Source: a virus
Taxonomy: Duplodnaviria; Caudoviricetes
Virus record (IMG/VR): IMGVR_UViG_3300042887_001901
Location: 1-62,168 of that record
Direction: 5' to 3' (one strand)
DNA length: 62,168 nt
The notes below the pieces were generated by a model that saw only the letters and a program-made list of their open reading frames with translations, had not been told where the DNA came from and made no database searches. Position numbers and translations under genes: made by a program. Numbering within the stretch: the stretch's first letter is position 1; the number at the start of each line of letters is the position of its first letter. Shown piece by piece: positions 17,774 to 38,615 of this stretch.

Positions 17774-17777
17774 TGTT

Positions 17778-18383
17778 ATGCCCTCAATTAGTTATGCAAT
17801 TACAGCTTGTAATGAGCACATTGAATTAGAGAGACTACTAAACCAGTTATCATCCGCTATTAGAGATGAAGATGAGATTGTAGTACAAATGGATATTACT
17901 GCTACTGATGAAGTAAAAGATGTAGTTAACAAATATAAGTTAATGAATTACTTCCATCCATTAAATAAAGATTTCGCTACATTTAAAAATAATCTTAAAG
18001 GTCTATGTACTAAAGATTATATCTTCCAAATTGATGCTGATGAGTACCTATCAGAAGAATTACTAGCATATCTTCCAGCTATATTAGAGGACAATAACCG
18101 TGTTGAGATGTTCTCTCTACCACGTATTAATACAGTTGAAGGCTTAACTCAAGAACATATTAAACAATGGGGTTGGAGAGTTGATGAAAGAGGATGGGTT
18201 AATTATCCTGATTACCAAAATCGTATACTTAGAAATAAACCTGAAATACATTGGGTAAATAAAGTACACGAAAAGATAATTGGCGCTATGGTCACAACAG
18301 AAATACCTCCAGGATTAGATTTAATACATCCTAAGACAATAGAAAAACAAGAAAAACAAAACAATTATTATAATACAATATGA
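17778..18383 (+). CDS. GT2 glycosyltransferase
   Basis: ISYAITACNE, IFQIDADE, KVHEKI. Confidence 0.85.
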   Translation: MPSISYAITACNEHIELERLLNQLSSAIRDEDEIVVQMDITATDEVKDVVNKYKLMNYFHPLNKDFATFKNNLKGLCTKDYIFQIDADEYLSEELLAYLPAILEDNNRVEMFSLPRINTVEGLTQEHIKQWGWRVDERGWVNYPDYQNRILRNKPEIHWVNKVHEKIIGAMVTTEIPPGLDLIHPKTIEKQEKQNNYYNTI

Positions 18384-21317: not shown

Positions 21318-21918
21318 AGATACAAAGATATACGGCTCGTTTTCCTCTAACCCGGGAAATAACGGCTGTATGTTCTTTAATAATAAATTCCAAAAAAACA
21401 GCATAAATGCCATTTACAAATCATTCTACTCAGATAACATTCTCAGTTCAATAGTAGCTGCTAAGATTTTAAATTTCAGTGGTTTTGCTGTTAGTATGCC
21501 CTTTAAAGTAGAAGTATTAAATCATGTTAATGAAATAGATTTTGCAGCTAAAGTAATTGGTGCTGCTAATACTATTATAAACAGTAATGGATTTTTAAAA
21601 GCATATAATACTGATTGGATGGGTGTTTATAATTATCTTTCATTATTAACTAAACCAGAACACTTATATATCTTAGGTAATGGTGGGTTTGGTAAAGCAG
21701 TAGAATACGCTTGTATTCAGTTAAATATACCTTGCAGATTTATTCTTAGAGCTGAATGGGATAAAGTACCTAATTTAGAGGGTATGGTATTTAATGCTAC
21801 ACCAGTAGATGTAGAAGTAAGAGGAACATTGATTGATGGTAGACCATTTGTTGAAGGACAAGGTAGAGTAATTGCTGATTTACAAGCTGAAGAACAATAT
21901 AAAATTTATACAAAATGA
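21301..21918 (+). CDS. Shikimate dehydrogenase-like protein
   Basis: VSMPFK, IGAANT, YNTDW, GNGG, NATP. Confidence 0.8.
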   Translation: MNTINKDTKIYGSFSSNPGNNGCMFFNNKFQKNSINAIYKSFYSDNILSSIVAAKILNFSGFAVSMPFKVEVLNHVNEIDFAAKVIGAANTIINSNGFLKAYNTDWMGVYNYLSLLTKPEHLYILGNGGFGKAVEYACIQLNIPCRFILRAEWDKVPNLEGMVFNATPVDVEVRGTLIDGRPFVEGQGRVIADLQAEEQYKIYTK

Positions 21919-22889
21919 GTAATGTAAAATATTTCATTGGACCAATGTCTAAAAACATTGTAGATGCTATAGTTGAATTCTGTGCTAACACAGGAAATAC
22001 AATAGCCTTTATTCCTTCTCGTAGACAAGTAGAATGGGATGGGGGTTATGTAAATAACTGGACTACAGAAGAATTTAGTAAGTATGTTACTACATTACCA
22101 CTACAACGTGATCATAGTGGTCCTGGACAAGGTAACAATGACGATGATGGACTTGAATCATTAGCTTATGATGCTAAATACTTTCAATTAATTCATATTG
22201 ATCCTTGGAAAAAATATCCTGGATATGTTGATGGATTAGAGCAAACAATTAAAATGATTAAATTTGCTCTTGAAATTAATCCCCAATTAATATTTGAGGT
22301 TGGTACTGAAGAGGCAATTAGACCGTTTGAGGCAGATGAATTAAATCAATTAGTAATAGATTTATGGGCTGCTTTACCTAAAGAAACATATAAACAGATA
22401 AAATACCTAGTTATACAATCAGGAACATCACTTAAAGGTACTGATCAAACAGGTAACTATGATGCTGAACGTTTAAAAGAAATGATTAAAGTAGCTCAAC
22501 GTCATGATTTAATTTCTAAAGAACATAATGGTGATTATATTCCTGTAGAAACAATTAAAGAAAAATTTGATTTAGGATTAGATTGTATAAACATTGCTCC
22601 TGAATTTGGCTTAATAGAAACTCAAACATATCTTGATGAAATAAAAGATAGTAAAATATTTGATAGATTTTGGCAAATATGTTATGATTCTAAAAAATGG
22701 GTTAAATGGGTTAGTCCTAGCTTTGACCCTTACTACAATAAAGAACAACTAATCAAAATATGTGGTCATTATGTTTTATCTTATCCTGAATTTACTTCAG
22801 AAATAAAATCACAATTTCCAGGTATAGATGAAAAAATTAAATCAAACGTTACAAGAAAATTAAATCAGTTACATGGATACGAGGCCTAA
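21915..22889 (+). CDS. TIM-barrel sugar aldolase/epimerase (GatZ/KbaZ or UxaE-like)
   Basis: RDHSGP, IHIDP, FEVGTEE, VIQSGT, KEHNGDY, NIAPE. Confidence 0.7.
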   Translation: MSNVKYFIGPMSKNIVDAIVEFCANTGNTIAFIPSRRQVEWDGGYVNNWTTEEFSKYVTTLPLQRDHSGPGQGNNDDDGLESLAYDAKYFQLIHIDPWKKYPGYVDGLEQTIKMIKFALEINPQLIFEVGTEEAIRPFEADELNQLVIDLWAALPKETYKQIKYLVIQSGTSLKGTDQTGNYDAERLKEMIKVAQRHDLISKEHNGDYIPVETIKEKFDLGLDCINIAPEFGLIETQTYLDEIKDSKIFDRFWQICYDSKKWVKWVSPSFDPYYNKEQLIKICGHYVLSYPEFTSEIKSQFPGIDEKIKSNVTRKLNQLHGYEA

Positions 22890-23232
22890 AACAATTATAT
22901 GTGATATAGATGGAACATTAGTTAAACATAATATTCCAACAAAAAACACATCACCAAACAATTTATTAGAATTATTACCAGGCACTGTTGAAAAATTATC
23001 TGAATGGGACGCTAAAGGTTATAATATAATTTTAATTACAGGTAGAAGAGAATCAATGAGAGAAGCTACTGAAAAACAGTTAGCTGAAGTAGGTATATTT
23101 TATGACCAGTTAATTATGGGTATAGGTGGTGGGCCTAGAATTGTAATTAATGACAATAAACCTACTGGACAAGAAACAGCATTCGCTATTAATTTAGAAC
23201 GCAATAAAGGTATCGATGATATTATTCTGTAA
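22873..23232 (+). CDS. HAD-superfamily phosphatase
   Basis: CDIDGTL, ITGR, INDNKP. Confidence 0.85.
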   Translation: MDTRPKTIICDIDGTLVKHNIPTKNTSPNNLLELLPGTVEKLSEWDAKGYNIILITGRRESMREATEKQLAEVGIFYDQLIMGIGGGPRIVINDNKPTGQETAFAINLERNKGIDDIIL

Positions 23233-24298
23233 CACATTTATTACTGAGGCTAAACCATTTGGTAAAGGAAATGTAGTTAGAGATAACTTAAAGTCCTTTA
23301 ATAATTTAGATATATTCAAATATTCACTAGCTAGTTTAGCTGTTGCTTATGACTGGAGTAAAGTAATACTAAAAATATCATTAGACGACTGTTATAAACA
23401 CAGAAAAGATGAATTAGAACAATTTATCAAAAATAACTTTAGTCAATTTAATTTAGTTTTAACTTGGCAGAGAAGTGAGTATCAAAACGATTGGAAACAA
23501 GATTACGAATTATTAGATAATAATTTAATTTGGTATTATTGTAATCATGATCATATATTCTTTGATTCGTCTAAAGATTATTTAGCTGAATTAGTTGATG
23601 AAATGAAAGATGAGGAATTATGTTCATTACAATTCTCTCATTGGCCTGAAAATATTAGAACAGCTAAAAAGAATCCTAATTATGTTATCCATAACAACCA
23701 TATTTCATTTGAATCTATTAACTTTGATAGTATTCAAATTATAACTAAAGAATTATATCGTAGATGGTGGTTTGAAGGTGAATTTAACCATATTAAATTA
23801 GGTAGACCTGATTTCTTTGGAATTGGATTAGCTGAAATTAAACCTATGCCTATGCATAAGGTAATAGTACCTTTTAAAGAAATATGTCGACACTTCGATG
23901 GTTATCAACATGTACAACCTATTATAAATAATAATCAATGCCCTGCAATTGATATTCCTGTTGGATTCTTTGAAAACGATATCAAAATTAGGTATGGTTA
24001 TGATGATTATATAGAAGGATGGACCAATATAAATCCTAAAAATTTAGATTATTACGCTTACAATACAACAGGAACTGATTATAAGTTTACATTAAATGAT
24101 TTACCATTAGTTTGGAAAGATAAAACATCAGTTATAGATTCAAATATAAAATCTGACGATGACGAAATAGTTCAACATCGTTTAAAGGCAATATTTGATA
24201 TGTTTAATACATCAGAATATTTTCCTATAGATAGTGAAGTAGAAAATAAAATATTTAATAAATACTTAGAAAATTTTAATTATAGTATAGATGCTTAA
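23216..24298 (+). CDS. Putative glycosyltransferase/hypothetical protein in the sugar island
   Basis: NHDHIFFD, SHWPE, CRHFDGY; genomic context. Confidence 0.5.
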   Translation: MILFCNTFITEAKPFGKGNVVRDNLKSFNNLDIFKYSLASLAVAYDWSKVILKISLDDCYKHRKDELEQFIKNNFSQFNLVLTWQRSEYQNDWKQDYELLDNNLIWYYCNHDHIFFDSSKDYLAELVDEMKDEELCSLQFSHWPENIRTAKKNPNYVIHNNHISFESINFDSIQIITKELYRRWWFEGEFNHIKLGRPDFFGIGLAEIKPMPMHKVIVPFKEICRHFDGYQHVQPIINNNQCPAIDIPVGFFENDIKIRYGYDDYIEGWTNINPKNLDYYAYNTTGTDYKFTLNDLPLVWKDKTSVIDSNIKSDDDEIVQHRLKAIFDMFNTSEYFPIDSEVENKIFNKYLENFNYSIDA

Positions 24299-25649
24299 AA
24301 TATATTCCAATTTTATTCCACAAAACGAGCTTGAAGAAGCAATTAATGTGCCTGAATTAATTAATAAGCCCATTACTGTGTTTAATGATTACCCTAATGT
24401 AACCCCAGAATTACTTAATTTTAATCCATTTAATATATTAATGGTATTAGAACCAAATCAGTTATTTGGTATTCATGATTGGGCACTTCAAAACTACAAT
24501 TTATTTAGTTGTATATTAACAGGTGGACAAGAAATATTAGACAAATGTCCTAATGCTTTATTCTTTCCAATGGGTATTTCTTGGTTAGATAAGGAATATG
24601 TTGATAATGTAGATAATATTCAAAAACGATTTGAGGTATCGTTCTTATGTGGGGGTAAACAAAGAATTGAGGGTCATCATTTAAGACATAGATTACATAA
24701 ACGCGGTGATGAAATTACTATTCCTAAACAATGGCATTATACTTTACCTGATTATGATTATAATGAGGGTCATCATACAGTAACAGACATGTATGGTAAA
24801 AAAGTATTATGGGAAAGCATGTTTACTATTGCTATTGAAAATTCATCAAATAGAAGTTACCATACTGAAAAAATTATTGATGCATTTATTTCTAAAACAT
24901 TTCCTATATATTGGGGTTGTCCAAATTTAGAAGAATTAGGATATAATCCAGATGGATTTATATATTGTGAAAACGAAGATCAAATTATTGATGCTGTAAA
25001 TAAATTAACACCTGAATTATATGCTGAAAGAAAAGAAGCAATAGATTATAATTGTGAATTAGCTAAGCATTATGGTGATTTATTTGGTCGTTTTAAAACA
25101 ATGGTAGAAACATTAGTTGAATTTAATAATATAGAAGATAAAGTATTATCTTACGATCAGTTATTTAAAAAATATAAAGGCGATCATAAATTATTCTTTG
25201 AGACGGGTACTCATAAAGGAGATGGTGTTCAAAACGCTTTAAATATGGGCTTTGAAGAAGTTATATCAGTTGAGATATTACCTGAACTTTATGAAGGTTG
25301 TGTTAAACGTTTTAAAAATAATAATAAAATACATTTGTTCTTAGGCGATTCAAATGAGAGAATGGAGGAAATGCTTGAATTAATTAAGGAACCATCATTA
25401 ATATTTTTAGATGGACATTTTAATAATGGAGACCCATTATGGAAAGAATTAGAAATATTAAAAAACCATCCAATCAAAACACATACTATTATAGTAGATG
25501 ATATGCCTAATTACTATGGTAATGGAGAAAAAGTAAAAGAAAAATTGTTAGAAATTAATCCTAATTATACTTTAGTATATGAAGACTCACTAAACTCTGG
25601 AACAGGTAAAATACACAGAAATCATAATTTAACCGCTTATATTAAGTAA
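24291..25649 (+). CDS. GT10 (fucosyltransferase-like) + SAM methyltransferase fusion
   Basis: FTIAIENS..YHTEKIID..PIYWG (GT10); FFETGTHKG, FLDGH, IVDD (methyltransferase). Confidence 0.8.
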   Translation: MLKIYSNFIPQNELEEAINVPELINKPITVFNDYPNVTPELLNFNPFNILMVLEPNQLFGIHDWALQNYNLFSCILTGGQEILDKCPNALFFPMGISWLDKEYVDNVDNIQKRFEVSFLCGGKQRIEGHHLRHRLHKRGDEITIPKQWHYTLPDYDYNEGHHTVTDMYGKKVLWESMFTIAIENSSNRSYHTEKIIDAFISKTFPIYWGCPNLEELGYNPDGFIYCENEDQIIDAVNKLTPELYAERKEAIDYNCELAKHYGDLFGRFKTMVETLVEFNNIEDKVLSYDQLFKKYKGDHKLFFETGTHKGDGVQNALNMGFEEVISVEILPELYEGCVKRFKNNNKIHLFLGDSNERMEEMLELIKEPSLIFLDGHFNNGDPLWKELEILKNHPIKTHTIIVDDMPNYYGNGEKVKEKLLEINPNYTLVYEDSLNSGTGKIHRNHNLTAYIK

Positions 25650-26338
25650 TGAAAATATTTGTAACAGGAGGTAGTGGACATTTAGGAAAAGTATTAGTTG
25701 ATTACTTGCAAAAGGATCATGATATACTTGCTCCTAATAGTAAAGAGTGTAATGTACTTAATACCTATAATCTATATAAAATAATTAAAGATTTTAATCC
25801 TGATATTGTTATCCATTTAGCTGCTTTTGTAGATACATTTGGATGTGAGGAACGTAAAATAGATGCTTTAGATACAAACGTTTTAGGAACACTCAATATG
25901 GTAGAAGCATGTATGTATCTTGATTGTAAATTTATATACATTTCCTCTGAATATGTGTTTGGAGGTAGTAAAGGTAACTATACAGTAGATGATAGATTAG
26001 ATCCTATTAATGTGTATGGTAAAACAAAAGCAGCAGCTGAATATATAGTTTCAGTATTACCAAATCATCAAATAATAAGAGCTCCATTCATTAGACAAGT
26101 ATATCCTAAAGTATTTACTGATCAATATTGTTCTAGATACTTTCTAGATGAAGTAGTAGAAAAAATATCAAATAATATATTCAATAATCCAGATAAATTA
26201 GTTCATATAGCCTCTGAAAGGATGTCACTATATGAGTTGTATATTAAACACGAAATTGAAGCGGAACCAATTACAATGCCTGAAAATCAATTAGGTATTA
26301 TTCCTAAAGATACAAGCTTAATAAATAACAGTATATGA
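25649..26338 (+). CDS. dTDP-4-dehydrorhamnose reductase-like SDR (RmlD-like)
   Basis: TGGSGHLG, HLAA, ISSEYVF, YGKTK. Confidence 0.85.
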   Translation: MKIFVTGGSGHLGKVLVDYLQKDHDILAPNSKECNVLNTYNLYKIIKDFNPDIVIHLAAFVDTFGCEERKIDALDTNVLGTLNMVEACMYLDCKFIYISSEYVFGGSKGNYTVDDRLDPINVYGKTKAAAEYIVSVLPNHQIIRAPFIRQVYPKVFTDQYCSRYFLDEVVEKISNNIFNNPDKLVHIASERMSLYELYIKHEIEAEPITMPENQLGIIPKDTSLINNSI

Positions 26339-27231
26339 GTAAAAAAACAGCCTGCGTAGTATATTATACTGATGACAGATATGATGAATTAGCTAAAAAC
26401 GTTAAAAATAGTTTCTTAGCACATAACGGTGAGGAATGTGATTATCACCAAATTGATTATACTAATCAAGAAGAATATAATAAATTATTAGAGTATTATG
26501 AATTTGCTCCTGAAACATTCTTGATGCAGTTTATTTATGCTTATGAAATAATGAAAAAACATAATTATGAAAAGATAATTGTGTTAGGGACTGATACTAT
26601 TGTTTGTAACAGACTAGATGAATTTTTAAATGATAACACTACTCCAGTACTAGCATCTTTAAACTACCCAAATCAAGATGGAACTGAACATTGGATTACT
26701 CCATTAGTTCAAGTAACATTACCTGATGGAAATGTAGTAATGGATCATATGAATATTAATGCTGATGTAACTTGCTTTAATAGCGCTGATGCTTTAAAAA
26801 AGGTAATTGATTTAAGTATTGAACATTATTGTCATTTCTCAATTCAAGGTGGGTTAAATGAATTAGCATTTGTTGATAAATCATATGAAGTTAAAATTGT
26901 AGATGCACCTTACCCAACTAGTAAAGTAGTATACAATGCTCGCTCTAAAGGTGTGTTTGGTACTGATATGATTAGAAAAGGATTATTAGCCAAATATGGT
27001 CCTCAATATGATGGACAACCATCACCTATTAGACATTGGTATGTTAATGATAACAAATTATATACTCATGACCATAAGCAAATTAAATGCTTTCACTTCG
27101 TAGAAGGGTTAGGGGGTCGACCAATTGAATCATTTAAAGAATTAATTAATGACTTTAAAACCAATTGGTTCAATGAAGACACAATTAAGTTCTTTAAAGA
27201 ACAATGTGGATGTTCAGAATTCTTTAATTAA
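26335..27231 (+). CDS. Putative GT-A glycosyltransferase
   Basis: LGTDTIV, NADV, QGGLN pattern reminiscent of GT8; genomic context. Confidence 0.5.
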   Translation: MSKKTACVVYYTDDRYDELAKNVKNSFLAHNGEECDYHQIDYTNQEEYNKLLEYYEFAPETFLMQFIYAYEIMKKHNYEKIIVLGTDTIVCNRLDEFLNDNTTPVLASLNYPNQDGTEHWITPLVQVTLPDGNVVMDHMNINADVTCFNSADALKKVIDLSIEHYCHFSIQGGLNELAFVDKSYEVKIVDAPYPTSKVVYNARSKGVFGTDMIRKGLLAKYGPQYDGQPSPIRHWYVNDNKLYTHDHKQIKCFHFVEGLGGRPIESFKELINDFKTNWFNEDTIKFFKEQCGCSEFFN

Positions 27232-27240
27232 ATTTAGTGT

Positions 27241-28554
27241 ATGCAAGAAATATTAAAATTAGTAGATGAGTATATTCAGAAGAAACATTCTGAAAAGTCG
27301 TGGACCGCAGGTAAAGACTGGGTTCAATATGCTGGCCCATATTTCGATTCATCGGAATATATGGCTGCTGTTAAATCGTTATTAGGCGAATGGTTAGTGT
27401 TAGGTGCCGATGCGATTAAGTTCGAACGTAAATTTCCTAAATTATTCGGTAAAGAGTATGGTTTATTAACGAATAGTGGTTCAAGTGCTAATCTGTTAAT
27501 GATGGTTGCTATGACCTCTAAACGCGGCTATAATCTGCCTAAAGGAACGAAAGTAATTACTCCTATAGCTGGTTTCCCAACTACTGTAGCACCAATTATC
27601 CAATTAGGATTCGCCCCTATATTCGTTGATATCGAGCTTGAAACATTAAACCTCGATTTAGATCAAGTTGAACAAGCGTGCATTGATAACCCCGACGCTA
27701 AAATCATTACGTTCGCTCACGTATTAGGTAATCCACCAAACATGAATCGCTTGATGGCGATTATTGAAAAGTATAATTTAATATTATTAGAGGATTGCTG
27801 TGATGCTTTGGGTTCTACATTTGAAGGTAAACCATTAGGATCATTTGGTAAAATGGCTAGTTGTTCATTCTATCCAGCCCACCACATCACAATGGGTGAA
27901 GGTGGATTTGTAGCAATGAATGATCAAAATACAGAACGTATTGTTCGTAGTTTTAGAGAGTGGGGTAGAGGATGTTATTGTGTTGGTAAACAAAACTTAT
28001 TAGAAAATGGTACTTGCGATTGTCGTTTTAATAATTGGCTTCCATCATTACCAAACGATATATTTGATCACAAATATGTTTATGAGGAAATAGGATACAA
28101 TATGAAACCAATTGAATTACAAGCATCTATTGGTTTAGTACAAATGGAGAAATTAGAAGAAATAGGTATTAAACGTAAAGAAAATTATAAAAACTTATTC
28201 CAAGCATTTAGTAAATACAAACAATACTTCCAGTTACACGAAGCACAACCAGGAGCTGATGTTGATTGGTTTGCATTTCCAATAACAATTAAGGATAATA
28301 CTCCATTTAAACGTTCTGATATTTGTAAGTTCTTAGAGGCAAATAAAATACAAACACGTCCTTACTTTGCAGGTAATATTATGTTACAACCTGCTTATAC
28401 ACACTTGATGGATTCTAAAGAGGTAATTGAAAAATATCCTGTAGCTAGAAAAGTTACAACTGATACATTCTTCTTAGGTACATCACCTGTTATTAATAAG
28501 GAAAAAACAGATTATATAGAAACAATTTTAGATAAATTCATTAATCAATTATAA
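27241..28554 (+). CDS. rfbH: CDP-4-keto-6-deoxyglucose 3-dehydratase (RfbH/DdhC)
   Basis: NSGSSANL, EDCCDALG, SFYPAHHITMGEGG (His in place of the PLP Lys), DHKYVY. Confidence 0.9.
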   Translation: MQEILKLVDEYIQKKHSEKSWTAGKDWVQYAGPYFDSSEYMAAVKSLLGEWLVLGADAIKFERKFPKLFGKEYGLLTNSGSSANLLMMVAMTSKRGYNLPKGTKVITPIAGFPTTVAPIIQLGFAPIFVDIELETLNLDLDQVEQACIDNPDAKIITFAHVLGNPPNMNRLMAIIEKYNLILLEDCCDALGSTFEGKPLGSFGKMASCSFYPAHHITMGEGGFVAMNDQNTERIVRSFREWGRGCYCVGKQNLLENGTCDCRFNNWLPSLPNDIFDHKYVYEEIGYNMKPIELQASIGLVQMEKLEEIGIKRKENYKNLFQAFSKYKQYFQLHEAQPGADVDWFAFPITIKDNTPFKRSDICKFLEANKIQTRPYFAGNIMLQPAYTHLMDSKEVIEKYPVARKVTTDTFFLGTSPVINKEKTDYIETILDKFINQL

Positions 28555-29501
28555 TGAAGAAAATAGTATACATAACTGGATGTTTAGGATTTATAGGTTC
28601 ACACGTTACTAGACTATGCTTAAAGCAAGGATGGTATGTAAGAGGTATTGATAAATGTACTTATGCTGCTAATCTTAATTTATTAACAGAATTTCATGAA
28701 TATGATAACTTTGAATTTGAAAACGAAGATATTAATGATATAAAATTCTTATATGAATGTGATTATGTTATTAATACGGCTGCTGAAACGCATGTTGGAA
28801 ATTCAATAGCTAATAGTGATGCCTTTATTAAATCAAATATTGATGGTGTTCATAATTTACTTAATTTAATTAAAAATTATAGACACGAATCACCTAAATT
28901 ACCTACACTATTACATTTCAGTACTGATGAGGTATATGGTGATATAGATGAAGGAGCCCACACAGAAACAGATTTATTAAAACCATCTAATCCATATTCA
29001 GCAACTAAAGCAGCTGCTGATATGTTAGTATTAGCTTGGGGTAGAACATATAAATTACCTTATATTATTGTTAGACCAACTAACAACTATGGTGTTGGTC
29101 AGTATGTTGAAAAATTAATTCCTAAAACATGTAAGTATTTAGAATTAGGTAGAAAAATACCTTTACATAATAATGGTACACCTATTAGAAATTGGTTACA
29201 TGCTCATGATACAGCTAGAGCTATTGTTACTATTATTAATAAAGGGGTTGAAAATGAAATTTATAATATTGCAGGTGGGTTTGAGCAATCAAATTATGAT
29301 ACTGTTAGAAAAGTAATTACTGAATATAATGGTAGTAATATAGAAGATCATCTTGATTTAACTTACTCTAGAGTAGGACAAGATGTTAGATATGCTTTAG
29401 ATGACTCTAAATTAAAATCATTAGGTTGGAGACCAGTTGTAAGCTTTGATGATACATTACCTTCAATAGTAGAATATTATAAAAATAGATTTATATGGTA
29501 A
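28554..29501 (+). CDS. NDP-glucose 4,6-dehydratase (RmlB-like)
   Basis: TGCLGFIG, AAETHV, STDEVYG, PYSATKA, NNYG. Confidence 0.9.
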   Translation: MKKIVYITGCLGFIGSHVTRLCLKQGWYVRGIDKCTYAANLNLLTEFHEYDNFEFENEDINDIKFLYECDYVINTAAETHVGNSIANSDAFIKSNIDGVHNLLNLIKNYRHESPKLPTLLHFSTDEVYGDIDEGAHTETDLLKPSNPYSATKAAADMLVLAWGRTYKLPYIIVRPTNNYGVGQYVEKLIPKTCKYLELGRKIPLHNNGTPIRNWLHAHDTARAIVTIINKGVENEIYNIAGGFEQSNYDTVRKVITEYNGSNIEDHLDLTYSRVGQDVRYALDDSKLKSLGWRPVVSFDDTLPSIVEYYKNRFIW

Positions 29502-30121
29502 ATTTAAAAAAACGAATAGCAGAAATTGCTTATAAAAACAAATTAGGACACTTAGGAAGTTATTTTTCTAGTGTTGGAATTATAGATGAAATCTATTCTA
29601 AAATGGATAAAGATGATATATTCATCTTATCTTCAGGACATGCTGCTTTAGCATTATACGTTTGTTTAGAAAAATATAAAGGACAAGATGCTGAAGCATT
29701 ATTTATTAAACATGGTGGTCATCCTCACAGAGATGAAGAATGTGAAATTTATTGTTCTACAGGATCATTAGGTTTAGGTTTATGTGTTGCTTTAGGTAGA
29801 GCAGTAGCTAATCCAAAAAGAAAAGTTCAAGTATTAATTAGTGATGGTGAGTGTGCTGAGGGTAGTATTTGGGAGGCCTTAAAAACTATTAAGGAAGAAG
29901 GTATTACTAATATAGAAGTTCATGTTAATATAAATGGATATGCTGCTTATAAAGAAGTAGATGCATTATATCTTGAACAAAGATTAAAAGCATTCCTACC
30001 AGAAATTAAAATACACCATACAAATGTAGAGCAATATTCATTCTTAAAAGGATTAAATGCTCACTACCACGTAATGAATGAAGAAAATTATAATGAAGTT
30101 TTAAATTCAAACAATGACTAG
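29495..30121 (+). CDS. Transketolase-like TPP-binding subunit (N-terminal half)
   Basis: GHLGS, SSGHA, STGSLGLG, SDGECAEGSIWE. Confidence 0.88.
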   Translation: MVNLKKRIAEIAYKNKLGHLGSYFSSVGIIDEIYSKMDKDDIFILSSGHAALALYVCLEKYKGQDAEALFIKHGGHPHRDEECEIYCSTGSLGLGLCVALGRAVANPKRKVQVLISDGECAEGSIWEALKTIKEEGITNIEVHVNINGYAAYKEVDALYLEQRLKAFLPEIKIHHTNVEQYSFLKGLNAHYHVMNEENYNEVLNSNND

Positions 30122-30593
30122 AAAATTATTTGCCCAATTATTACTTGATGAGATGGCTGTTAATGATGACATCTATCTTATTACAGGAGACTTAGGATAT
30201 GGTTTGTGGGATAAAATTAGAGATACCTTTCCAGATAGATTTTTCAATGTAGGTTCATCTGAGATGGCTATGATGGGTATGGGAGTTGGATTAGCGATGG
30301 AGGGTAAAATTCCTTTCGTATATTCAATTACACCGTTTGCTATTTATAGACCATTTGAAATGATTCGTAATTATTTAGATCATGAAAAAATACCTGTAAA
30401 TATTATTGGTGGAGGTCGAGATCAAGATTATGGTTACTTAGGTTTCTCACATTGGTCCGAAGATGATAAGAAATTTATGACTCAATTTAATAATATTGCT
30501 AACGCCTGGCCTGAAAATGAAGATCATTTACAAAAATGTATGGACTACTGCTTGGAAAAAGTAGGTCCAGTATATATAAACTTAAAACGATAA
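30114..30593 (+). CDS. Transketolase-like pyrimidine-binding subunit
   Basis: TGDLG, RFFNVGSSE, GLAMEG, RPFEMIR, SHW. Confidence 0.88.
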   Translation: MTRKLFAQLLLDEMAVNDDIYLITGDLGYGLWDKIRDTFPDRFFNVGSSEMAMMGMGVGLAMEGKIPFVYSITPFAIYRPFEMIRNYLDHEKIPVNIIGGGRDQDYGYLGFSHWSEDDKKFMTQFNNIANAWPENEDHLQKCMDYCLEKVGPVYINLKR

Positions 30594-31363
30594 TGAGAAT
30601 ATTAATTACAGGAGCAAATGGCTATATAGGTAAATCATTACATACTGCTTTAAAAGATAAGTATGATGTAACAGCAATTACTAGAAATGGTTTTGATTTA
30701 ACGGATGCTGTTGCTATGTTTAAATTTTTCCAAAGTAGACAAAACTTTGATTTAGTATTACATTGTGCTGTAGCAGGTGCTGCTAATCCAAGAGATACTA
30801 ATTGGAATATTGCAGATACTAATTTAATAATATATTATAATTTATTACAACATAAAAATCATTTTGCTAAATTAATACACTTTGGATCTGGAGCTGAAAC
30901 CCACCTTCCAGATACGCCTTATGGGTATAGCAAAAAGGTTATTGCTAAGTCTATCCTAAATCAAGATAACTTTTATAACATTAAAATATTTGGTATATTT
31001 GATGAAAATGAATTAGATACTAGATTTATTAAGGCTAGCTTAAAACGATATATAGCTAAAGAACCAATTCAAATTCATCAAGATAAAGTAATGGATTTCT
31101 TCTACATGCAAGACTTAGTTAATGTACTAGAATATTATATGAGTGAAGAAAATCCACCTAAAGAATTTGATTGTGCTTATAATGAATTTTATTCATTAAA
31201 AAATATAGCAGACATTATTAATACTTTAGATGAATATAAGGTTGAAATTAATATTGAAAAAGAAGGTAGGGCTATGTATAAATCTAATTATCGTAGTGTA
31301 TTACCAATTGATTTAATTGGGTTAGAACAAGGAATTAAAAACGTATATGATAAGTTGAAATGA
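30593..31363 (+). CDS. NAD-dependent epimerase/reductase
   Basis: MRILITGANGYIG, GSGAE, YGYSK; start moved to 30593. Confidence 0.85.
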   Translation: MRILITGANGYIGKSLHTALKDKYDVTAITRNGFDLTDAVAMFKFFQSRQNFDLVLHCAVAGAANPRDTNWNIADTNLIIYYNLLQHKNHFAKLIHFGSGAETHLPDTPYGYSKKVIAKSILNQDNFYNIKIFGIFDENELDTRFIKASLKRYIAKEPIQIHQDKVMDFFYMQDLVNVLEYYMSEENPPKEFDCAYNEFYSLKNIADIINTLDEYKVEINIEKEGRAMYKSNYRSVLPIDLIGLEQGIKNVYDKLK

Positions 31364-32244
31364 ATATAAAAATAAAAATACATTATATGCCTTGGGAAGT
31401 AGACTATGCTCTACTTCAATTTATGCAACTTAAAAAAGCATCACAGCATTTGAGTGATGATATTTACTTTCATATTGGTTTAAATTTATCATCTCATATT
31501 ATTAATTGGAACGAATCTAAATTACCTAAAGAATATTTCATTAATAAGTTTAATGCTAATCTTAAGATGTTAGATTGGGCTAAAGATGTAAATGTTACTA
31601 TATATGAGGGAGATGAGTTATGGGGTCATTTAGATTTAGAAAAAACACAAATGGATCCTAAAATTGATTATTACATGTCAATTTGCCCTGATATGTGGTT
31701 CCATGAATATGCTTTATTCTATATTATAGAGGCAGCTAAACAAATTAAAGACAAACATTTCATTATTACCCCAGAAATTCATAAATTATGGGACTGGACG
31801 TGGGATGAATTGGTAAATGATAATTATCAAAATGTATCTTACAGTGATTGGAATAAATCAGATATATTTGAAATACAATCTAGAGCATTAGGTGAACCAT
31901 ACTTACAATTAACATCACGCTTTAAATATGCTGGTTGGTTTGATTTGTATAGTAAAGATTTTATGGAATTAATTCCAATACCTGATGACTGGAAAGGATA
32001 CGGCCCTTGGGATTACTATAGTATGCTAGTTTCAGATATAGCTGTTAAAAATGGTATTGATATTAAAGAATATGTTTTAAAAAACCAAATCATATTTGAA
32101 TATCATCCAAATAAAGAAGATAAAAGTAATTTTGCAGATTATTATAAAGACTTACTTTCACTAAATAAAATAGAAAATCAAAGACAAGTTGTAGAATCAA
32201 AATTCTCTCATTATATTGAACAATGGACAAACAAAAACTTATGA
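31360..32244 (+). CDS. Putative glycosyltransferase
   Basis: CPDMWF, GWFDL, GYGPWD; genomic context. Confidence 0.5.
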   Translation: MNIKIKIHYMPWEVDYALLQFMQLKKASQHLSDDIYFHIGLNLSSHIINWNESKLPKEYFINKFNANLKMLDWAKDVNVTIYEGDELWGHLDLEKTQMDPKIDYYMSICPDMWFHEYALFYIIEAAKQIKDKHFIITPEIHKLWDWTWDELVNDNYQNVSYSDWNKSDIFEIQSRALGEPYLQLTSRFKYAGWFDLYSKDFMELIPIPDDWKGYGPWDYYSMLVSDIAVKNGIDIKEYVLKNQIIFEYHPNKEDKSNFADYYKDLLSLNKIENQRQVVESKFSHYIEQWTNKNL

Positions 32245-37121: not shown

Positions 37122-37206
37122 GGAAAGCTGGCAGAGTGGTTGAATGCACCGGTCTTGAAAACCGGCAACTGTAACAGGTTCTGAGGTTCGAATCCTTGGC
37201 TTTCCG
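37122..37206 (+). tRNA. tRNA-Ser(UGA)
   Basis: GGAAAGC/GCTTTCC acceptor stem, CCGGT-CTTGAAA-ACCGG anticodon arm, variable arm, GGTTCGAATCC, G73; CCA not encoded. Confidence 0.93.
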
Positions 37207-37220
37207 CAAAATTATATTAT

Positions 37221-37445
37221 ATGTTATTAGGTTATTACATTATTTGTGTTATTTACTGTTTCTATCAGTTAAATAAAAAATATAAAACAAGAGGTATTGA
37301 TTATGGTATATCACCAGAAATGGATGCTATAATGGTATTAGTTATGGCTTGGGTATTAGCCCCAGTTGACGTATCTATTACTTGGATTAAAATGGTTAAA
37401 GAAGCTGAAGAGGCTAAGCGTAGAAATAGTAATAGATGGATTTAA
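37221..37445 (+). CDS. Small membrane protein
   Basis: Two hydrophobic segments. Confidence 0.6.
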   Translation: MLLGYYIICVIYCFYQLNKKYKTRGIDYGISPEMDAIMVLVMAWVLAPVDVSITWIKMVKEAEEAKRRNSNRWI

Positions 37446-37448: not shown

Positions 37449-37604
37449 TGTAGGGTGGCGGAAATGACGGCAGTCAAGGTAGACGTGCCCTCTCGTCTAG
37501 AGGGTGCTGATAAGAGATAGATATAAGATATGGGTTGACCACAAAGCCGGCTTAGTTGTCTTATATTGAATCGCAGCGTGCTGGTTCGACTCCAGCCCCT
37601 ACAG
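37449..37604 (+). ncRNA. Aberrant tRNA-like RNA (156 nt; 75-nt variable arm; nominal GUC anticodon)
   Basis: TGTAGGG/CCCTACA acceptor stem, Leu/Ser-type D region, CCCTC-TCGTCTA-GAGGG arm, GCTGG-TTCGACT-CCAGC T arm. Confidence 0.8.
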
Positions 37605-37606
37605 CA

Positions 37607-37907
37607 AGTTGCTGTTCTTTAACATATAGGAGAAATAAATTATGGAAATACTATCATTCGTTTTAGGGGTAGCATTTGTAGTGGTTATTGCTGTTGCAAT
37701 AGTTGCTGTTTATGCTTTCGTTAAGGTAAGACAAGTAAAACAAGAACTACAAAGTACTCAATTAACATTGAGTAGTGAAATTGAAAATGTGTATCGAGTA
37801 ATACATGATGAAAAAATGAATATGTATTCATCAATCGACTCACGTTTGGACAAATTAGAATCTAAATTAACTAATAAAAAATAAAAATTAGTTAAAGAAC
37901 AGCAACT
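37607..37907. repeat. Long-range inverted repeat enclosing ORF 37642..37884 (arms 37607-37623 and 37891-37907)
   Basis: AGTTGCTGTTCTTTAAC ... GTTAAAGAACAGCAACT, perfect 17 bp. Confidence 0.9.
37642..37884 (+). CDS. Single-pass membrane protein with coiled coil
   Basis: N-terminal TM helix, C-terminal IDSRLDKLE; AGGAG upstream. Confidence 0.75.
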   Translation: MEILSFVLGVAFVVVIAVAIVAVYAFVKVRQVKQELQSTQLTLSSEIENVYRVIHDEKMNMYSSIDSRLDKLESKLTNKK

Positions 37908-37922: not shown

Positions 37923-38249
37923 ATGGCGTGTCATTGTTTAACATTAAAGGATCAACGTGAATTCTTTCGATTAATGAAAGAAAGGGATAGCGATTTGATA
38001 CTTAAAATGGTTAAATGTGTACTTAGTGCATATAAGCGAAATAAAGACGGAATTGATATATTTGATATCACATTCAAAGATATGAGTGGCATGGTATTTA
38101 ATATTGAAAAATCGCAGTACACTGATTTATTATCCAATTGTTTAAATGATTTAATTGCAATTGAAGAATATGAACTATGTGCTGATATTAAGAAAATATT
38201 AGATAAGAAATCACGTAAAAAACATGGGGATGCCCTGGAATTGATTTAA
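37923..38249 (+). CDS. Hypothetical protein with UVR-like motif
   Basis: CLNDLIAIEEYELCADIKKIL; 3' end overlaps the tmRNA. Confidence 0.7.
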   Translation: MACHCLTLKDQREFFRLMKERDSDLILKMVKCVLSAYKRNKDGIDIFDITFKDMSGMVFNIEKSQYTDLLSNCLNDLIAIEEYELCADIKKILDKKSRKKHGDALELI

Positions 38250-38583
38250 TTGTAGAGGTAATACCACACGTAGACAAAGTAAGAATGTCTTTAAATACTT
38301 GCAAAACAATAACCGTAGAATTATCTACCATGACCTTCGCAGACTTAATGTCTTTCGTAGGCGCTGACGAGTACGCATACGCGGCTTAATAAGCATCGGG
38401 TGTAACATCCTAGGAACAGAAGTTACAAGCTAGGTTTTCTTTGTAGTCGTAAAACAAAGTGGTGGTAACTGGTACTTAACTGTACGGCCCTTTACTGATC
38501 AGCTTAAAATGTAGATCTAAACGTGTGACACGCTGGTATAGCTGTCTCTATTAAAGACAGGGGTTCGACTCCCCTCATCTCCA
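38226..38583 (+). ncRNA. ssrA: tmRNA
   Basis: GGGGATG/CATCTCC-A acceptor stem with G3.U70, GACAGGGGTTCGACTCCCC T arm, internal tag ORF ending YAYAA followed by TAA TAA. Confidence 0.92.
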
Positions 38584-38587
38584 CTGC

Positions 38588-38615
38588 AGAGCAACCCTAA
38601 TCGGTTGCTCTTTTT
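38588..38615 (+). terminator. Rho-independent terminator after tmRNA
   Basis: AGAGCAACC-CTAATC-GGTTGCTCT-TTTT. Confidence 0.8.

What the first reader, a model, noticed from the sequence alone, without database searches (positions are those of the whole stretch)
37449..37604. Giant tRNA-like RNA with a 75-nt variable arm, a D-loop hairpin and a non-canonical anticodon loop
Seen: perfect 7-bp acceptor stem (TGTAGGG/CCCTACA) with G discriminator and a perfect T arm. The Leu/Ser-type D region is interrupted by an extra hairpin (TGAC-GGCA-GTCA). The anticodon loop TCGTCTA has C33 and a pyrimidine at 37, breaking universal rules. The variable region 37505-37579 folds into a long irregular hairpin (GCTG/CAGC; GATATAAGATA/TGTCTTATATT). 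Intact stems argue against a decaying pseudogene. Known: SerRS and LeuRS largely ignore the anticodon, and SerRS reads a long variable arm. Inference: a non-decoding tRNA mimic (decoy for anticodon nucleases or tRNA-sensing defences, synthetase sponge, or scaffold for the arm hairpin), or a tRNA carrying an atypical intron.
Basis: partly seen in the sequence, partly recalled or inferred. Interest (0 to 1): 0.82.

Follow-up and report, generated by a model that had tools for sequence, protein, structure and literature searches.

The report
Self-pairing tRNA-shaped RNA of lake phages
This is a real, conserved, previously unnamed phage RNA that is shaped like a transfer RNA with two extra arms, one ending in a self-complementary tract that probably joins two copies, so it looks like a two-headed mimic of tRNA-Asp and not a working or decaying tRNA.

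Summary
ARAGORN and Rfam 15 do not call the element. On 100 sequences, 98.7% of cells pair, 29 of 42 pairs change on both sides, and 0 of 500 shuffles reach this. The element sits in phage tRNA/tmRNA arrays, one copy per genome. The anticodon-like loop is YYGUCUM. G34 U35 C36, G73 and mostly C38 are the strong aspartate identity set, but position 37 is always U and position 33 is usually C. The new point is the tip of the giant variable arm. It carries an invariant GGGUWGACCAC followed by an 8-10 nt tract whose sequence varies (17 versions) yet stays perfectly self-complementary in 104 of 105 sequences. That is the signature of pairing between two copies. About half of the D-loop inserts are palindromes too. 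The best reading is a non-decoding, dimer-forming tRNA-Asp mimic. The intron reading is not supported. The function is inferred, not shown.

The parts
37449..37455 (+). Acceptor stem, 5' strand (TGTAGGG). U1, G2 and U3 are conserved across the family; positions 4-7 covary with the 3' strand.
   Evidence: pairs 1-7 are 100% paired, and 5 of 7 change on both sides
37456..37464 (+). U8 G9, D-stem 5' strand GCG (37458-37460), then G13 A14 A15 A. These are tRNA core nucleotides.
   Evidence: T8, G9, G12, A14 and A15 are invariant in 46 of 46 sequences retrieved without constraint on this region
37465..37476 (+). Extra hairpin inserted in the D loop (TGAC-GGCA-GTCA). In the family this insert varies in sequence and length.
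   Evidence: 71 unique inserts; 35 of 71 hold a perfect palindrome of 8 nt or more (5% of shuffles do); 14 of 71 are 6-7 bp hairpins with the loop CUCWGUU. The window's own insert is a plain hairpin with a non-palindromic loop.
37477..37487 (+). Rest of the D loop with G18 G19 (37478-37479), D-stem 3' strand CGT (37484-37486), and position 26 (G).
   Evidence: GG is invariant; D-stem pair 11-24 is U-A in 78 and C-G in 22 of 100
37488..37504 (+). Anticodon-like arm: stem CCCTC/GAGGG and 7-nt loop TCGTCTA (37493-37499), that is U32 C33 G34 U35 C36 U37 A38.
   Evidence: 3 of 5 stem pairs covary. G, T, C, T at 34-37 are invariant in 46 of 46 unconstrained sequences. Loop types in 100 sequences: TCGTCTC 60, CTGTCTC 20, TCGTCTA 9, CCGTCTC 6, CCGTCTA 3, TTGTCTC 1, TCGTCTT 1.
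37505..37519 (+). Variable arm, proximal 5' side: base helix GCTG (37506-37509), bulge ATAA, short helix GA (37514-37515), and internal-loop strand GATA (37516-37519).
   Evidence: helices 4 and 5, 6 of 7 pairs with changes on both sides; A67, A69, A71 and G72 are invariant
37520..37530 (+). Variable arm, long helix 5' strand GATATAAGATA. It pairs with 37557-37567.
   Evidence: helices 6 and 7: 8 of 10 pairs change on both sides
37532..37542 (+). Invariant apex motif GGGTTGACCAC (family consensus GG(G)KWGACCAC).
   Evidence: present in 104 of 105 unique sequences, and 1 has GACTAC. No complementary target occurs elsewhere in 5 carrier genomes.
37544..37553 (+). Self-complementary tract AAGCCGGCTT, the proposed site of pairing between two copies of the RNA.
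   Evidence: 104 of 105 unique sequences hold a perfect palindrome of 6-12 nt here, in 17 distinct versions. Symmetric positions +-1 to +-4 are Watson-Crick in 104, 104, 104 and 103 of 104, falling to 31 and 12 of 104 at +-6 and +-7.
37557..37579 (+). Variable arm 3' side: long helix TGTCTTATATT (37557-37567), internal-loop strand GAA (37568-37570), TC (37571-37572), base helix CAGC (37574-37577), and GT.
37580..37596 (+). T arm GCTGG-TTCGACT-CCAGC with a canonical T loop (T54 T55 C56 R57 A58).
   Evidence: T, T, C, R, A in 100 of 100; 4 of 5 stem pairs covary
37597..37605 (+). Acceptor 3' strand CCCTACA, discriminator G (37604), and encoded C74 (37605). CCA is not encoded.
   Evidence: G73 in 100 of 100; the next base is C in 105 of 105 unique sequences, and full CCA is encoded in 4 of 105
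37122..37207 (+). Context: tRNA-Ser(UGA) upstream on the same strand.
38226..38586 (+). Context: phage tmRNA downstream on the same strand, followed by a terminator-like hairpin at 38588-38611.

Best explanation
The element is a gene for a stable, non-decoding, tRNA-shaped RNA carried in the tRNA/tmRNA array of large T4-like lake phages. It keeps everything needed to fold as an L and to be cut out and finished like a tRNA: a 7-bp acceptor stem, U8, A14, G18 G19, a canonical T arm, and G73-C74. Its anticodon-like loop keeps the aspartate identity nucleotides G34 U35 C36 (and usually C38) together with G73 and G2-C71. Position 37 is always U and position 33 is usually C, so it is built to be recognised as tRNA-Asp but not to read codons. 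Two extra arms are grafted on. The giant variable arm ends in an invariant GGGUWGACCAC followed by an 8-10 nt self-complementary tract. That tract pairs with the same tract of a second molecule and gives a symmetric two-headed dimer. Where the D-loop insert is also a palindrome, longer assemblies may form. The proposed function is a bivalent mimic that occupies a host factor recognising tRNA-Asp: the dimeric AspRS, or an anticodon-directed nuclease or defence protein. Shown: the family, its structure, its conserved loops, the self-complementarity, and its genomic setting. Inferred: processing, dimer formation in vivo, non-decoding, and the target.
For: Family and structure. 138 loci and 105 unique sequences were found. 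On 100 sequences, 98.7% of cells pair, 29 of 42 pairs change on both sides, 0 of 500 shuffles reach this, and slid controls give 41-48%. An independent MAFFT/RNAalifold run gives 24 of 42 compensatory pairs.

tRNA-like handling. 105 of 138 loci hold tRNA or tmRNA genes, and 520 of 522 of those genes lie on the same strand as the element. 34 loci have a tRNA ending 20 nt or less upstream, and 26 have one starting 20 nt or less downstream. C74 follows G73 in 105 of 105.

Aspartate-type loop. G34, U35, C36 and U37 are invariant in 46 of 46 sequences retrieved by the arm motif only. G73 is 100 of 100, G2-C71 is 100 of 100, and C38 is 87 of 100. PMC9976931 (passages read) names G73, G34, U35, C36 and C38 as the five strong aspartate determinants, with the anticodon strongest in bacteria.

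Not the phage's working tRNA-Asp. A canonical tRNA-Asp(GUC) lies in the same held stretch in 13 of 138 loci.

Self-pairing. 104 of 105 sequences hold a perfect palindrome in 17 versions, and the central four positions are always Watson-Crick. A hairpin loop would not need that. The one exception (L075) has an ordinary hairpin, CTAAG-10 nt-CTTAG, at that place. The same palindrome is not enriched elsewhere in the loci, with 3 seen against 6.4 expected, so the partner is another copy. In 18 of 25 sampled members the minimum-energy homodimer uses the palindrome.

D inserts. 35 of 71 unique inserts hold palindromes of 8 nt or more, against 5% of shuffles.

Copy number. There is one copy per genome in 5 of 5 carrier genomes.
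Against: No experiment or read-level data show the mature ends, CCA addition, charging or a dimer. The RNA-library evidence is low-depth contigs that may include DNA. The first acceptor pair is U1-A72 in 100 of 100, whereas G1-C72 is described as strictly conserved and important in bacterial tRNA-Asp. A 75-nt arm on the variable-loop side may hinder AspRS docking; the geometry is recalled and was not tested. 21 of 100 members have U33, so only U37 argues against decoding in those. The cofold control is weak: mean dimer gain is -13.3 kcal/mol native against -10.8 scrambled, and 7 of 25 minimum-energy dimers do not use the palindrome. Two divergent members lack the palindrome (L075, and L161 with a different 112-nt arm insert), so self-pairing is not indispensable for every member. 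No phage-encoded partner was found: 0 of 5 carrier genomes encode a class IIb synthetase domain or a CCA-adding enzyme. The invariance of GUCU and of the 5' half among loci is partly imposed by that search pattern.
Confidence: 0.5

Rival explanations
1. It is a working, decoding tRNA-Asp(GUC) with decorated arms. The loop changes and extra arms protect it from host anticodon nucleases while it still reads GAY codons.
For: All five strong aspartate determinants are present. The tRNA core, T loop and acceptor are intact. It sits in tRNA arrays with tRNA-like spacing. 21 of 100 members have the canonical U33, giving CUGUCUC, which differs only at position 37 from the E. coli tRNA-Asp loop as I recall it. 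Phage tRNAs are reported to escape tRNA-targeting defences through anticodon-loop changes (PMC10264068; title and abstract seen in the listing).
Against: U37 occurs in 46 of 46 unconstrained sequences, and C33 in 79 of 100. U33 and a purine at 37 are near-universal in decoding tRNAs (established knowledge). A canonical tRNA-Asp co-occurs in 13 of 138 loci. The first pair is U1-A72, not G1-C72. An invariant 11-nt motif plus a palindrome in the arm has no role in decoding.
Confidence: 0.12
2. It is a building block of an RNA-only assembly and the tRNA likeness serves only for processing and stability (a natural 'tRNA scaffold'). Molecules with two self-complementary sites, the arm tip and the D insert, would form chains, rings or condensates, like the multimeric GOLLD and ROOL RNAs of phages.
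For: Self-complementary tracts occur at the arm tip in 104 of 105 sequences and in 35 of 71 D inserts. Short D palindromes such as GCGTACGC can form only a 2-bp hairpin alone but an 8-bp duplex between copies. GOLLD RNA lies in the same tRNA array in L028 and in 3 of 5 carrier genomes. GOLLD and ROOL form homo-oligomeric cages and lie near tRNA islands in phages (PMC12286853, passages read). A second family in the same phages keeps tRNA ends around a hypervariable middle.
Against: This does not explain the invariant aspartate-type loop YYGUCUM or the conserved G73, G2-C71 and U1-A72. The window's own D insert is not a palindrome, so it has only one sticky site. 2 of 5 carrier genomes lack GOLLD.
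Confidence: 0.2
3. It is a trans-acting antisense regulator cut out of a tRNA-like precursor, as with the RNase P-processed C4 and CI RNAs of phages P1 and P4 (recalled). The invariant loops would pair with a host RNA.
For: Two single-stranded tracts are invariant while the stems vary: GGGUWGACCAC and YYGUCUM. It has a tRNA-like setting for processing.
Against: No complementary site of 11 nt or more exists in 5 of 5 carrier genomes other than the gene itself. The best duplexes of the apex against the window's transcripts (-25.2 kcal/mol) lie within the range of 20 shuffled apexes (-21.4 to -28.3). This does not explain the palindrome. The host is unknown, so host targets could not be searched.
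Confidence: 0.1
4. It is a tRNA gene interrupted by one or two introns (the D-loop hairpin and the variable arm) that are removed to give a normal-size tRNA.
For: The size and positions of the two inserts. With its intron option, ARAGORN makes some call on 46 of 105 elements.
Against: Those 46 calls disagree in anticodon and intron place. The arm is 75 nt, far below self-splicing intron sizes, and there is no Rfam intron match at E<=10. The inserts are themselves under strong selection. Removing them would still leave C33 and U37. RNA-library contigs cross the junctions unspliced and no joints were seen (contigs cannot show absence).
Confidence: 0.03
5. The conserved tip is a DNA-level signal, such as a protein-binding palindrome or a TTGACC -35-like box, that happens to lie inside a tRNA-like gene.
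For: TTGACC resembles a -35 hexamer. Palindromes are typical sites for dimeric DNA-binding proteins.
Against: The palindrome's sequence changes freely (17 versions) while only its symmetry is kept. That fits nucleic-acid self-pairing, not a conserved protein site. The would-be -10 lies in a helix strand that covaries with its partner. The promoter scan lists no site starting at this TTGACC, and promoter-like sites in the region are at chance level, 9 against 8.5.
Confidence: 0.03

Closest known systems
Bacteriophage T4 'species 1' stable RNA (rnaC), with rnaD
   Same: A stable RNA of about 140 nt with no assigned function, encoded at the end of the tRNA cluster of a T4-type phage. It has a tRNA-type T arm (CCGGG-UUCGAAU-CCCGG) and lies on the same strand as the tRNAs (annotation and sequence). 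The window's phage is also T4-like by its DNA polymerase.
   Different: No sequence homology was detected. Model R1 gives 14.9 bits on rnaC, the same range as ordinary T4 tRNAs (11-32 bits), against 93-178 bits for family members. rnaC shows no anticodon-like Asp loop, no GGGUWGACCAC motif and no palindrome in the sequence printed.
tRNA-Asp(GUC)
   Same: G34 U35 C36, C38 (87 of 100), G73 and G2-C71 are present. These are the aspartate determinants listed in PMC9976931.
   Different: The first pair is U1-A72 and not G1-C72. Position 37 is U in all members and position 33 is C in 79 of 100. It has a 3-bp D stem and a 75-nt arm where tRNA-Asp has a short variable loop. It also has an extra D-loop hairpin.
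Class II tRNAs (Ser, Leu, bacterial Tyr) and the 'allo-tRNAs' with unusual cloverleaves (PMC5389517; abstract seen)
   Same: A 3-bp D stem and a helical variable arm leaving the core at the same place. G73 as in tRNA-Ser. A 7/5 acceptor/T configuration like canonical tRNAs.
   Different: The arm is several times longer than in class II tRNAs and carries a conserved motif and a palindrome. The loop is not a Ser, Leu or Tyr anticodon loop. Allo-tRNAs have 8/4 or 9/3 acceptor/T stems, which this RNA does not.
RNAs that dimerise through palindromic loops (HIV-1 dimerisation initiation site, recalled; HYER1/5 ribozymes and OLE RNA, PMC12990946 and PMC12286853, passages read)
   Same: A self-complementary tract in an exposed apical region, flanked by purines, whose symmetry is conserved while its sequence varies. 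As with HYER relatives that lack the palindrome and are monomers, one member (L075) has a hairpin at that place.
   Different: Those are a viral genome leader, group II-derived ribozymes, or a large ornate RNA. None is tRNA-shaped. Dimerisation here is inferred from sequence only.
GOLLD and ROOL RNAs
   Same: Phage-borne structured RNAs of unknown function found in tRNA arrays, forming RNA-only multimers (PMC12286853). GOLLD lies in the same array as this RNA in L028 and in 3 of 5 carrier genomes.
   Different: They are 400-800+ nt, have unrelated folds, and are not tRNA-like. This RNA gives no Rfam match to them.
tmRNA
   Same: A tRNA-like acceptor/T-arm module joined to extra domains. It is encoded next to this RNA in many of these phages: 48 of 138 loci hold a tmRNA.
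   Different: tmRNA lacks an anticodon arm and carries a tag reading frame and pseudoknots. This RNA has U3-A70, not the G3-U70 alanine mark, and no tmRNA match.

Membership tests
tRNA (Rfam RF00005 / ARAGORN definition) | Recognised by the curated tRNA model or gene finder | tested here: not met
   No RF00005 match at gathering score or at E<=10. In 8 further loci every RF00005 hit lies outside the element. ARAGORN makes 0 calls overlapping the element in 138 loci.
tRNA (Rfam RF00005 / ARAGORN definition) | Cloverleaf core: 7-bp acceptor stem, 5-bp T stem with a TTCRA loop, U8, A14, G18 G19 | tested here: met
   all present and conserved; the stems covary
tRNA (decoding) | U33 and a purine at position 37 in a 7-nt anticodon loop | tested here: not met
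   Position 37 is U in 46 of 46 unconstrained sequences. Position 33 is C in 79 of 100.
tRNA-Asp | Strong identity determinants G73, G34, U35, C36, C38 (PMC9976931) | tested here: met
   G73 in 100 of 100; GUC invariant (46 of 46 unconstrained); C38 in 87 of 100, A in 12, U in 1. The window itself has A38.
tRNA-Asp | G1-C72 and G2-C71, conserved in bacterial tRNA-Asp | tested here: not met
   G2-C71 in 100 of 100, but the first pair is U1-A72 in 100 of 100
tRNA-Asp | Aminoacylation by AspRS | not testable with these tools
   Needs an enzyme assay
Class II tRNA (Ser/Leu/Tyr) | A long helical variable arm with the matching anticodon and discriminator (A73 for Leu and Tyr, G73 for Ser) | tested here: not met
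   The arm and G73 are present, but the loop is YYGUCUM and not a Ser, Leu or Tyr anticodon loop. Arm lengths of normal class II tRNAs are recalled.
Intron-containing tRNA (bacterial/phage type, group I intron) | A self-splicing intron fold, usually in the anticodon loop | tested here: not met
   No Rfam intron match at E<=10. The inserts are 12 and 75 nt and lie in the D loop and variable region. ARAGORN's intron-mode calls are inconsistent (46 of 105, differing anticodons). No joints were found in RNA-library contigs.
tmRNA | tRNA-Ala-like end with G3-U70, tag reading frame, pseudoknots | tested here: not met
   U3-A70 in 99 of 100. No RF00023 match on the element, whereas the true tmRNA 621 nt downstream scores 73.7 bits.
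T4 rnaC (species 1 RNA) | Sequence or structure homology to T4 rnaC | tested here: not met
   R1 scores rnaC at 14.9 bits, the level of unrelated tRNAs. The resemblance is in setting and T arm only.
Palindrome-mediated RNA homodimers (a functional class, not a sequence family) | An exposed self-complementary tract whose symmetry is conserved through sequence change | tested here: met
   104 of 105 sequences, 17 versions. Positions +-1 to +-4 are Watson-Crick in 104, 104, 104 and 103 of 104. Shuffled apexes reach 8 nt or more in about 7%.
Palindrome-mediated RNA homodimers (a functional class, not a sequence family) | A physical dimer in solution or in cells | not testable with these tools
   Only an energy calculation was possible: 18 of 25 minimum-energy dimers use the tract, and the margin over the scrambled control is modest.

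The most novel reading that the evidence does not exclude
Lake phages make a new kind of RNA quaternary structure. A tRNA-shaped RNA joins tail-to-tail through the tip of a giant variable arm into a symmetric two-headed particle. Where the D-loop insert is also self-complementary, it may form chains. Each head presents the aspartate identity set without being able to decode. Such a particle could clamp both tRNA sites of the dimeric AspRS, or of another tRNA-Asp-directed host enzyme or defence nuclease, with high avidity. That would be an RNA-only, bivalent inhibitor or decoy of a translation factor.
Probability: 0.3. Interest if true: 0.9.

Novelty: new variant of a known kind. Interest (0 to 1): 0.8.

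Why it matters
Phage tRNA arrays have long been known to hold stable RNAs of unknown role, such as T4 species 1 and 2 RNA, and more recently GOLLD and ROOL. Natural RNA multimers are still rare. This family is small (about 156 nt), abundant in lake viromes, and easy to transcribe. It gives two clear, testable predictions from sequence alone: it should dimerise through a palindrome that can be re-coded, and it should be recognised as tRNA-Asp without decoding. If either holds, it adds a new class of tRNA mimic and a compact model for RNA quaternary structure. It would also point to tRNA-Asp or AspRS as a battleground between phages and their hosts. On the practical side, the family is invisible to ARAGORN and Rfam, so it is currently left unannotated in phage genomes.

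Tried and rejected
1. An alternative register that would give a CUA (amber suppressor) anticodon was considered from the single sequence. It was rejected because the first homologue (L002) covaries with the CCCNC/GNGGG stem and breaks the alternative stem. Reading frames in the window are also compact under the standard code.

2. Antisense target search. Duplexes of the apex against both strands of the window are no better than shuffled apexes. The only hit for the complement of the motif in 5 carrier genomes is the gene itself.

3. Heterodimer partner. The element's own 8-nt palindrome core is not enriched elsewhere in the loci, 3 against 6.4 expected.

4. Cultured relatives. blastn of the element against 50,697 phage records found only T-arm matches of 19-25 nt. 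The 1.8-kb region matched only through tRNA-Ser. Microcystis phage Mel-JY01, the closest cultured phage by PolB, has only an 84-nt, 39.9-bit hit of ordinary tRNA size.

5. Bacterial genomes. The 19-mer found 10 places in genome contigs, of which 9 are unrelated GC-rich sequence and 1 is a 518-bp MAG contig. The 5'-half pattern found 4 MAG contigs.

6. Phage-encoded partners. PF00152 and PF01743 are absent from 5 of 5 carrier genomes.

7. RNA runs. Six RNA-library runs held 9-13% of the sampled words. Laying four of them gave low-depth contigs over parts of the element and no joints. Uncovered parts and depth carry no weight.

8. The cofold scrambling control separated native from scrambled only modestly.

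9. My own slips. The first degenerate pattern was one base short and found nothing, which used one viral scan. It was corrected after a local test. Scripts had regex or parsing errors and were rerun.

10. Earlier notes of this scan: two look-ups returned nothing.

11. Literature. Seven searches found no description of this RNA. PMC10690425 (passages read) lists 8,495 unnamed candidate structured RNAs from IMG/VR, including 'DNAVirus_1850', which was found 27 times and overlapped a tRNA-Asp call once.
Full report
**The observation.** The window is an IMG/VR virus record of 62,168 bp. It has about 32% G+C, CheckV estimates it 35% complete, and nearly all genes are on the + strand.
- a perfect 7-bp acceptor stem and a G discriminator;
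- a canonical T arm;
- a 3-bp D stem whose loop holds an extra hairpin (TGAC-GGCA-GTCA) before the GG;
- an anticodon-like arm with the loop UCGUCUA;
- a 75-nt variable region that folds into a long irregular hairpin.

ARAGORN finds tRNA-Ser (37122-37207) and a tmRNA (38226-38584) but not this element. Rfam 15 finds nothing on it at gathering score or at E<=10. On its own the fold is only modestly better than shuffles (z = -2.34), so the case rests on comparison.

**The family.** A 19-nt stretch from the tip of the variable arm hit 55 IMG/VR loci, giving 46 unique full-length elements. In all I held 138 loci with 105 unique elements of 155-176 nt.

A covariance model built from the first 46 (R1) scores members at 93-178 bits and ordinary tRNAs at about 12-38 bits.
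- On the MAFFT alignment, 24 of 42 predicted pairs show compensatory change.
- On 100 model-aligned sequences, 98.7% of cells are paired, against 41-48% when partners are slid. 29 of 42 pairs change on both sides, and 0 of 500 shuffles reach the observed values.
- That alignment is fitted to the model, so it leans towards the structure. The MAFFT result is the independent check.

No member was found among 50,697 cultured-phage records. In bacterial assemblies only short MAG contigs carry it.

**The setting.**
- 105 of 138 loci hold tRNA or tmRNA genes, and 520 of 522 of those genes are on the element's strand.
- 34 loci have a tRNA ending within 20 nt upstream, and 26 have one starting within 20 nt downstream.
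- 48 loci hold a tmRNA.
- In the window the element lies between small reading frames, 241 nt after tRNA-Ser and 621 nt before the tmRNA. A terminator-like hairpin follows the tmRNA.
- Five carrier genomes of 136-321 kb, four of them rated complete, each have exactly one copy.
- By DNA polymerase the phage is a distant T4-like virus. The best cultured match is Microcystis phage Mel-JY01 at 35.7% identity, then cyanomyoviruses at about 28-30%.
- All 18 DNA runs listed as holding 40% or more of the region's words are labelled lake water.
- Three of the four MAG contigs with a member are binned as Bacteroidota. That is only a weak hint of the host.

**What is conserved.** In the 46 sequences retrieved through the arm tip alone, the 5' half is unconstrained by the search. 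There U1, G2, U8, G9, G12, A14, A15, G18 G19 and the loop positions G34 U35 C36 U37 are invariant. In 100 sequences:
- G73 is 100 of 100, U1-A72 is 100 of 100, and G2-C71 is 100 of 100;
- position 38 is C in 87, A in 12 and U in 1;
- position 33 is C in 79 and U in 21.

The base after G73 is C in 105 of 105, while a full CCA is encoded in only 4. For loci that came the 5'-half invariance is partly forced by the pattern.

The review PMC9976931 (passages read) gives G73, G34, U35, C36 and C38 as the five strong aspartate determinants. It adds that the anticodon is strongest in bacteria, and that G1-C72 and G2-C71 are conserved in bacterial tRNA-Asp. The RNA therefore presents the aspartate set but lacks G1-C72. 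It replaces the purine at 37 in all members, and U33 in most. Both positions are near-universal in decoding tRNAs (established knowledge). A canonical tRNA-Asp(GUC) lies in the same held stretch in 13 of 138 loci, so this is not the phage's only Asp-type gene.

**The new finding: self-complementarity.** The arm tip consists of GG(G)KWGACCAC, then 1-3 nt, then a tract that differs between phages but is a perfect palindrome in 104 of 105 unique sequences. Lengths are 6 nt in 1, 8 nt in 41, 10 nt in 61 and 12 nt in 1. There are 17 versions, including AGCCGGCU, GCUUGCAAGC, GCUAGCUAGC, GCUCGAGC, GCUGCAGC, GCGCGCGC, CGCCGGCG and GCUGGCCAGC.

Counting outward from the centre, the symmetric positions are Watson-Crick as follows (of 104), with two to four pair types at each of the first four:

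| Position from centre | Watson-Crick pairs |
|---|---|
| +-1 | 104 |
| +-2 | 104 |
| +-3 | 104 |
| +-4 | 103 |
| +-5 | 62 |
| +-6 | 31 |
| +-7 | 12 |

A hairpin cannot explain this. The central four bases would be its loop and would have no need to be complementary, and the 8-mers would leave a 2-bp stem. A conserved protein site would keep its sequence, not only its symmetry. The simplest reading is a duplex between two copies of the RNA.

Several further points are consistent with that reading:
- The single exception (L075) has an ordinary hairpin at that place.
- The same palindrome is not enriched elsewhere in the loci.
- Minimum-energy homodimers use the tract in 18 of 25 sampled members, although the margin over a scrambled control is small.
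- The D-loop insert shows the same tendency. 35 of 71 unique inserts hold a perfect palindrome of 8 nt or more, against 5% of shuffles, and several (for example GCGUACGC) are too short to be stable hairpins.
- Another 14 of 71 inserts are 6-7 bp hairpins with a conserved loop CUCWGUU.
- The window's own insert is a plain hairpin.
- The two members without an arm palindrome (L075 and L161) both have UUCG-loop D hairpins. That is two cases only.

**Expression.** Four metatranscriptome runs hold contigs over parts of the element:
- a 107-nt contig identical over 37468-37554, which crosses the junction between the anticodon-like arm and the variable arm;
- one over 37481-37607;
- one running from 37517 into the downstream frame.

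No joint was reported. These are low-depth contigs from libraries that can contain DNA. They show presence of the unspliced form, not ends, level or absence of other forms.

**Mechanism.** I commit to the following, with steps marked as shown or inferred.
- Shown: a selected, tRNA-shaped RNA gene in tRNA arrays; an aspartate-type loop with positions 33 and 37 altered; a conserved motif and a self-complementary tract at the arm tip.
- Inferred from established tRNA biology: excision by RNase P and 3' trimming, CCA completion by the host enzyme (no phage CCA enzyme in 5 of 5 carrier genomes), and L-shaped folding.
- Inferred from the palindrome: a symmetric dimer, or longer assemblies where the D insert is also self-complementary.
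- Inferred from the loop: it is recognised as tRNA-Asp but does not decode.
- Proposed: it occupies a host factor that reads tRNA-Asp. One candidate is AspRS, a homodimer with two tRNA sites (established knowledge). The phages encode no AspRS-type enzyme themselves (0 of 5). The other candidate is an anticodon-directed nuclease or defence protein.

I put about 0.97 on 'real structured RNA family', about 0.7 on 'the tract pairs between copies', and about 0.4 on 'non-decoding tRNA-Asp mimic acting on a host factor'.

**Rivals.**
- A decoding tRNA-Asp that evades nucleases (0.12). For it: the identity set and U33 in 21 of 100. Against it: U37 in all, U1-A72, and co-occurring normal tRNA-Asp.
- An RNA-only assembly in which the tRNA likeness serves only processing and stability (0.2). 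For it: the two palindromic sites, GOLLD in the same arrays (L028; 3 of 5 carrier genomes), and a second family with tRNA ends around a hypervariable middle. Against it: it leaves the invariant Asp-type loop unexplained.
- An antisense regulator (0.1). No target was found in phage genomes, and host targets cannot be tested.
- An intron-bearing tRNA (0.03).
- A DNA-level signal (0.03).

**Comparison with what is known.** The closest analogue in setting is T4 species 1 RNA (rnaC, 139 nt, with a T arm, at the end of the T4 tRNA cluster, annotated only as a small stable RNA). There is no detectable homology (14.9 bits). The RNA fails membership of tRNA as defined by the curated model and by the decoding rules. 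It fails membership of tRNA-Asp (G1-C72, variable loop), class II tRNAs (anticodon), tmRNA, and intron-bearing tRNAs. It works like a tRNA mimic and, by inference, like the palindrome-mediated RNA dimers reviewed in PMC12990946.

I found no description of it in seven literature searches. One caveat applies. A 2023 catalogue of 8,495 unnamed candidate structured RNAs from IMG/VR (PMC10690425) mentions tRNA-like candidates, one of which overlapped a tRNA-Asp call.

**Verdict.** Interest is 0.8.

Noticed in passing
L045 6000-6120 (-), L010 1409-1512 (+) and 1224-1347 (+), L003 6272-6365 (-), L018 12799-12936 (+), L052 603-741 (+) and 876-1033 (+), L005 4670-4768 (-), L024 1734-1845 (+), L021 8051-8165 (-), and others; none in the window: A second family of tRNA-like genes occurs in the same phages and is not called by ARAGORN. 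The ends are strongly conserved (AGTCAGG-TG-GCGGAATTGGTAGACGC ... ACAGGTTCGAATCCTGT-CCTGACT-A). They surround a middle of about 30-105 nt that differs completely between phages and shows no consistent anticodon arm. There are 16 unique sequences of 84-158 nt in 15 of 140 viral loci. The window has no copy. It looks like a tRNA chassis carrying variable RNA inserts.
   Followed up: partly
L028 1621-2038 (+); carrier genomes G001 60152-60564, G002 155792-156209, G003 252767-253172: GOLLD RNA (RF02032, 269-322 bits) lies in the same tRNA array as the tRNA-like RNA and the tmRNA. It is present in 3 of 5 carrier genomes. No GOLLD match occurs in the window itself, which is only about 35% of its genome.
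   Followed up: partly
window 38226-38586 (+): The phage encodes a tmRNA (73.7 bits) with a long predicted tag, VELSTMTFADLMSFVGADEYAYAA. Relatives carry similar tags (...STMTFxDLMxFVGADYAVAA) in L002, L018 and L028. A terminator-like hairpin follows at 38588-38611.
   Followed up: no
D-loop insert of family members such as L067, L070, L076, L094 and L119: 14 of 71 unique D-loop inserts are 6-7 bp hairpins with covarying stems and a conserved 7-nt loop CUCAGUU or CUCUGUU. These look like a second anticodon-type arm, again with U at the position after the middle triplet.
   Followed up: no
L161 4702-4925 (+) (contig of a Saprospiraceae MAG); L075 6179-6352 (-): Two divergent members were seen. 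L161 keeps the tRNA-like body and the loop UUGUCUC, but its variable arm has a different 112-nt insert without the GACCAC motif or palindrome. L075 keeps GACCAC but has a hairpin in place of the palindrome. Both have UUCG-loop D hairpins.
   Followed up: partly
window 9866-11485, 5322-7892, 11506-12426, 14633-32244: The phage encodes a Cpn60/GroEL-type chaperonin (2.5e-62), a family B DNA polymerase and a clamp-loader-like AAA ATPase. It also has a long block of sugar-nucleotide and glycosyltransferase genes: GDP-mannose dehydratase/epimerase-type, DegT aminotransferase, a nucleotidyl transferase and glycosyltransferases.
   Followed up: no
L146, about 390-400 nt upstream of its element: Two extra copies of the element's own palindrome core AGCCGGCT lie 12 nt apart. 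This is the only locus with such repeats.
   Followed up: no
window 37221-37445 (+) and L002 about 9336-9556: A small predicted membrane protein (74 aa, ending ...EAEEAKRRNSNRWI) ends 3 nt before the RNA. A similar frame precedes the RNA in L002. It may be a conserved neighbour.
   Followed up: no
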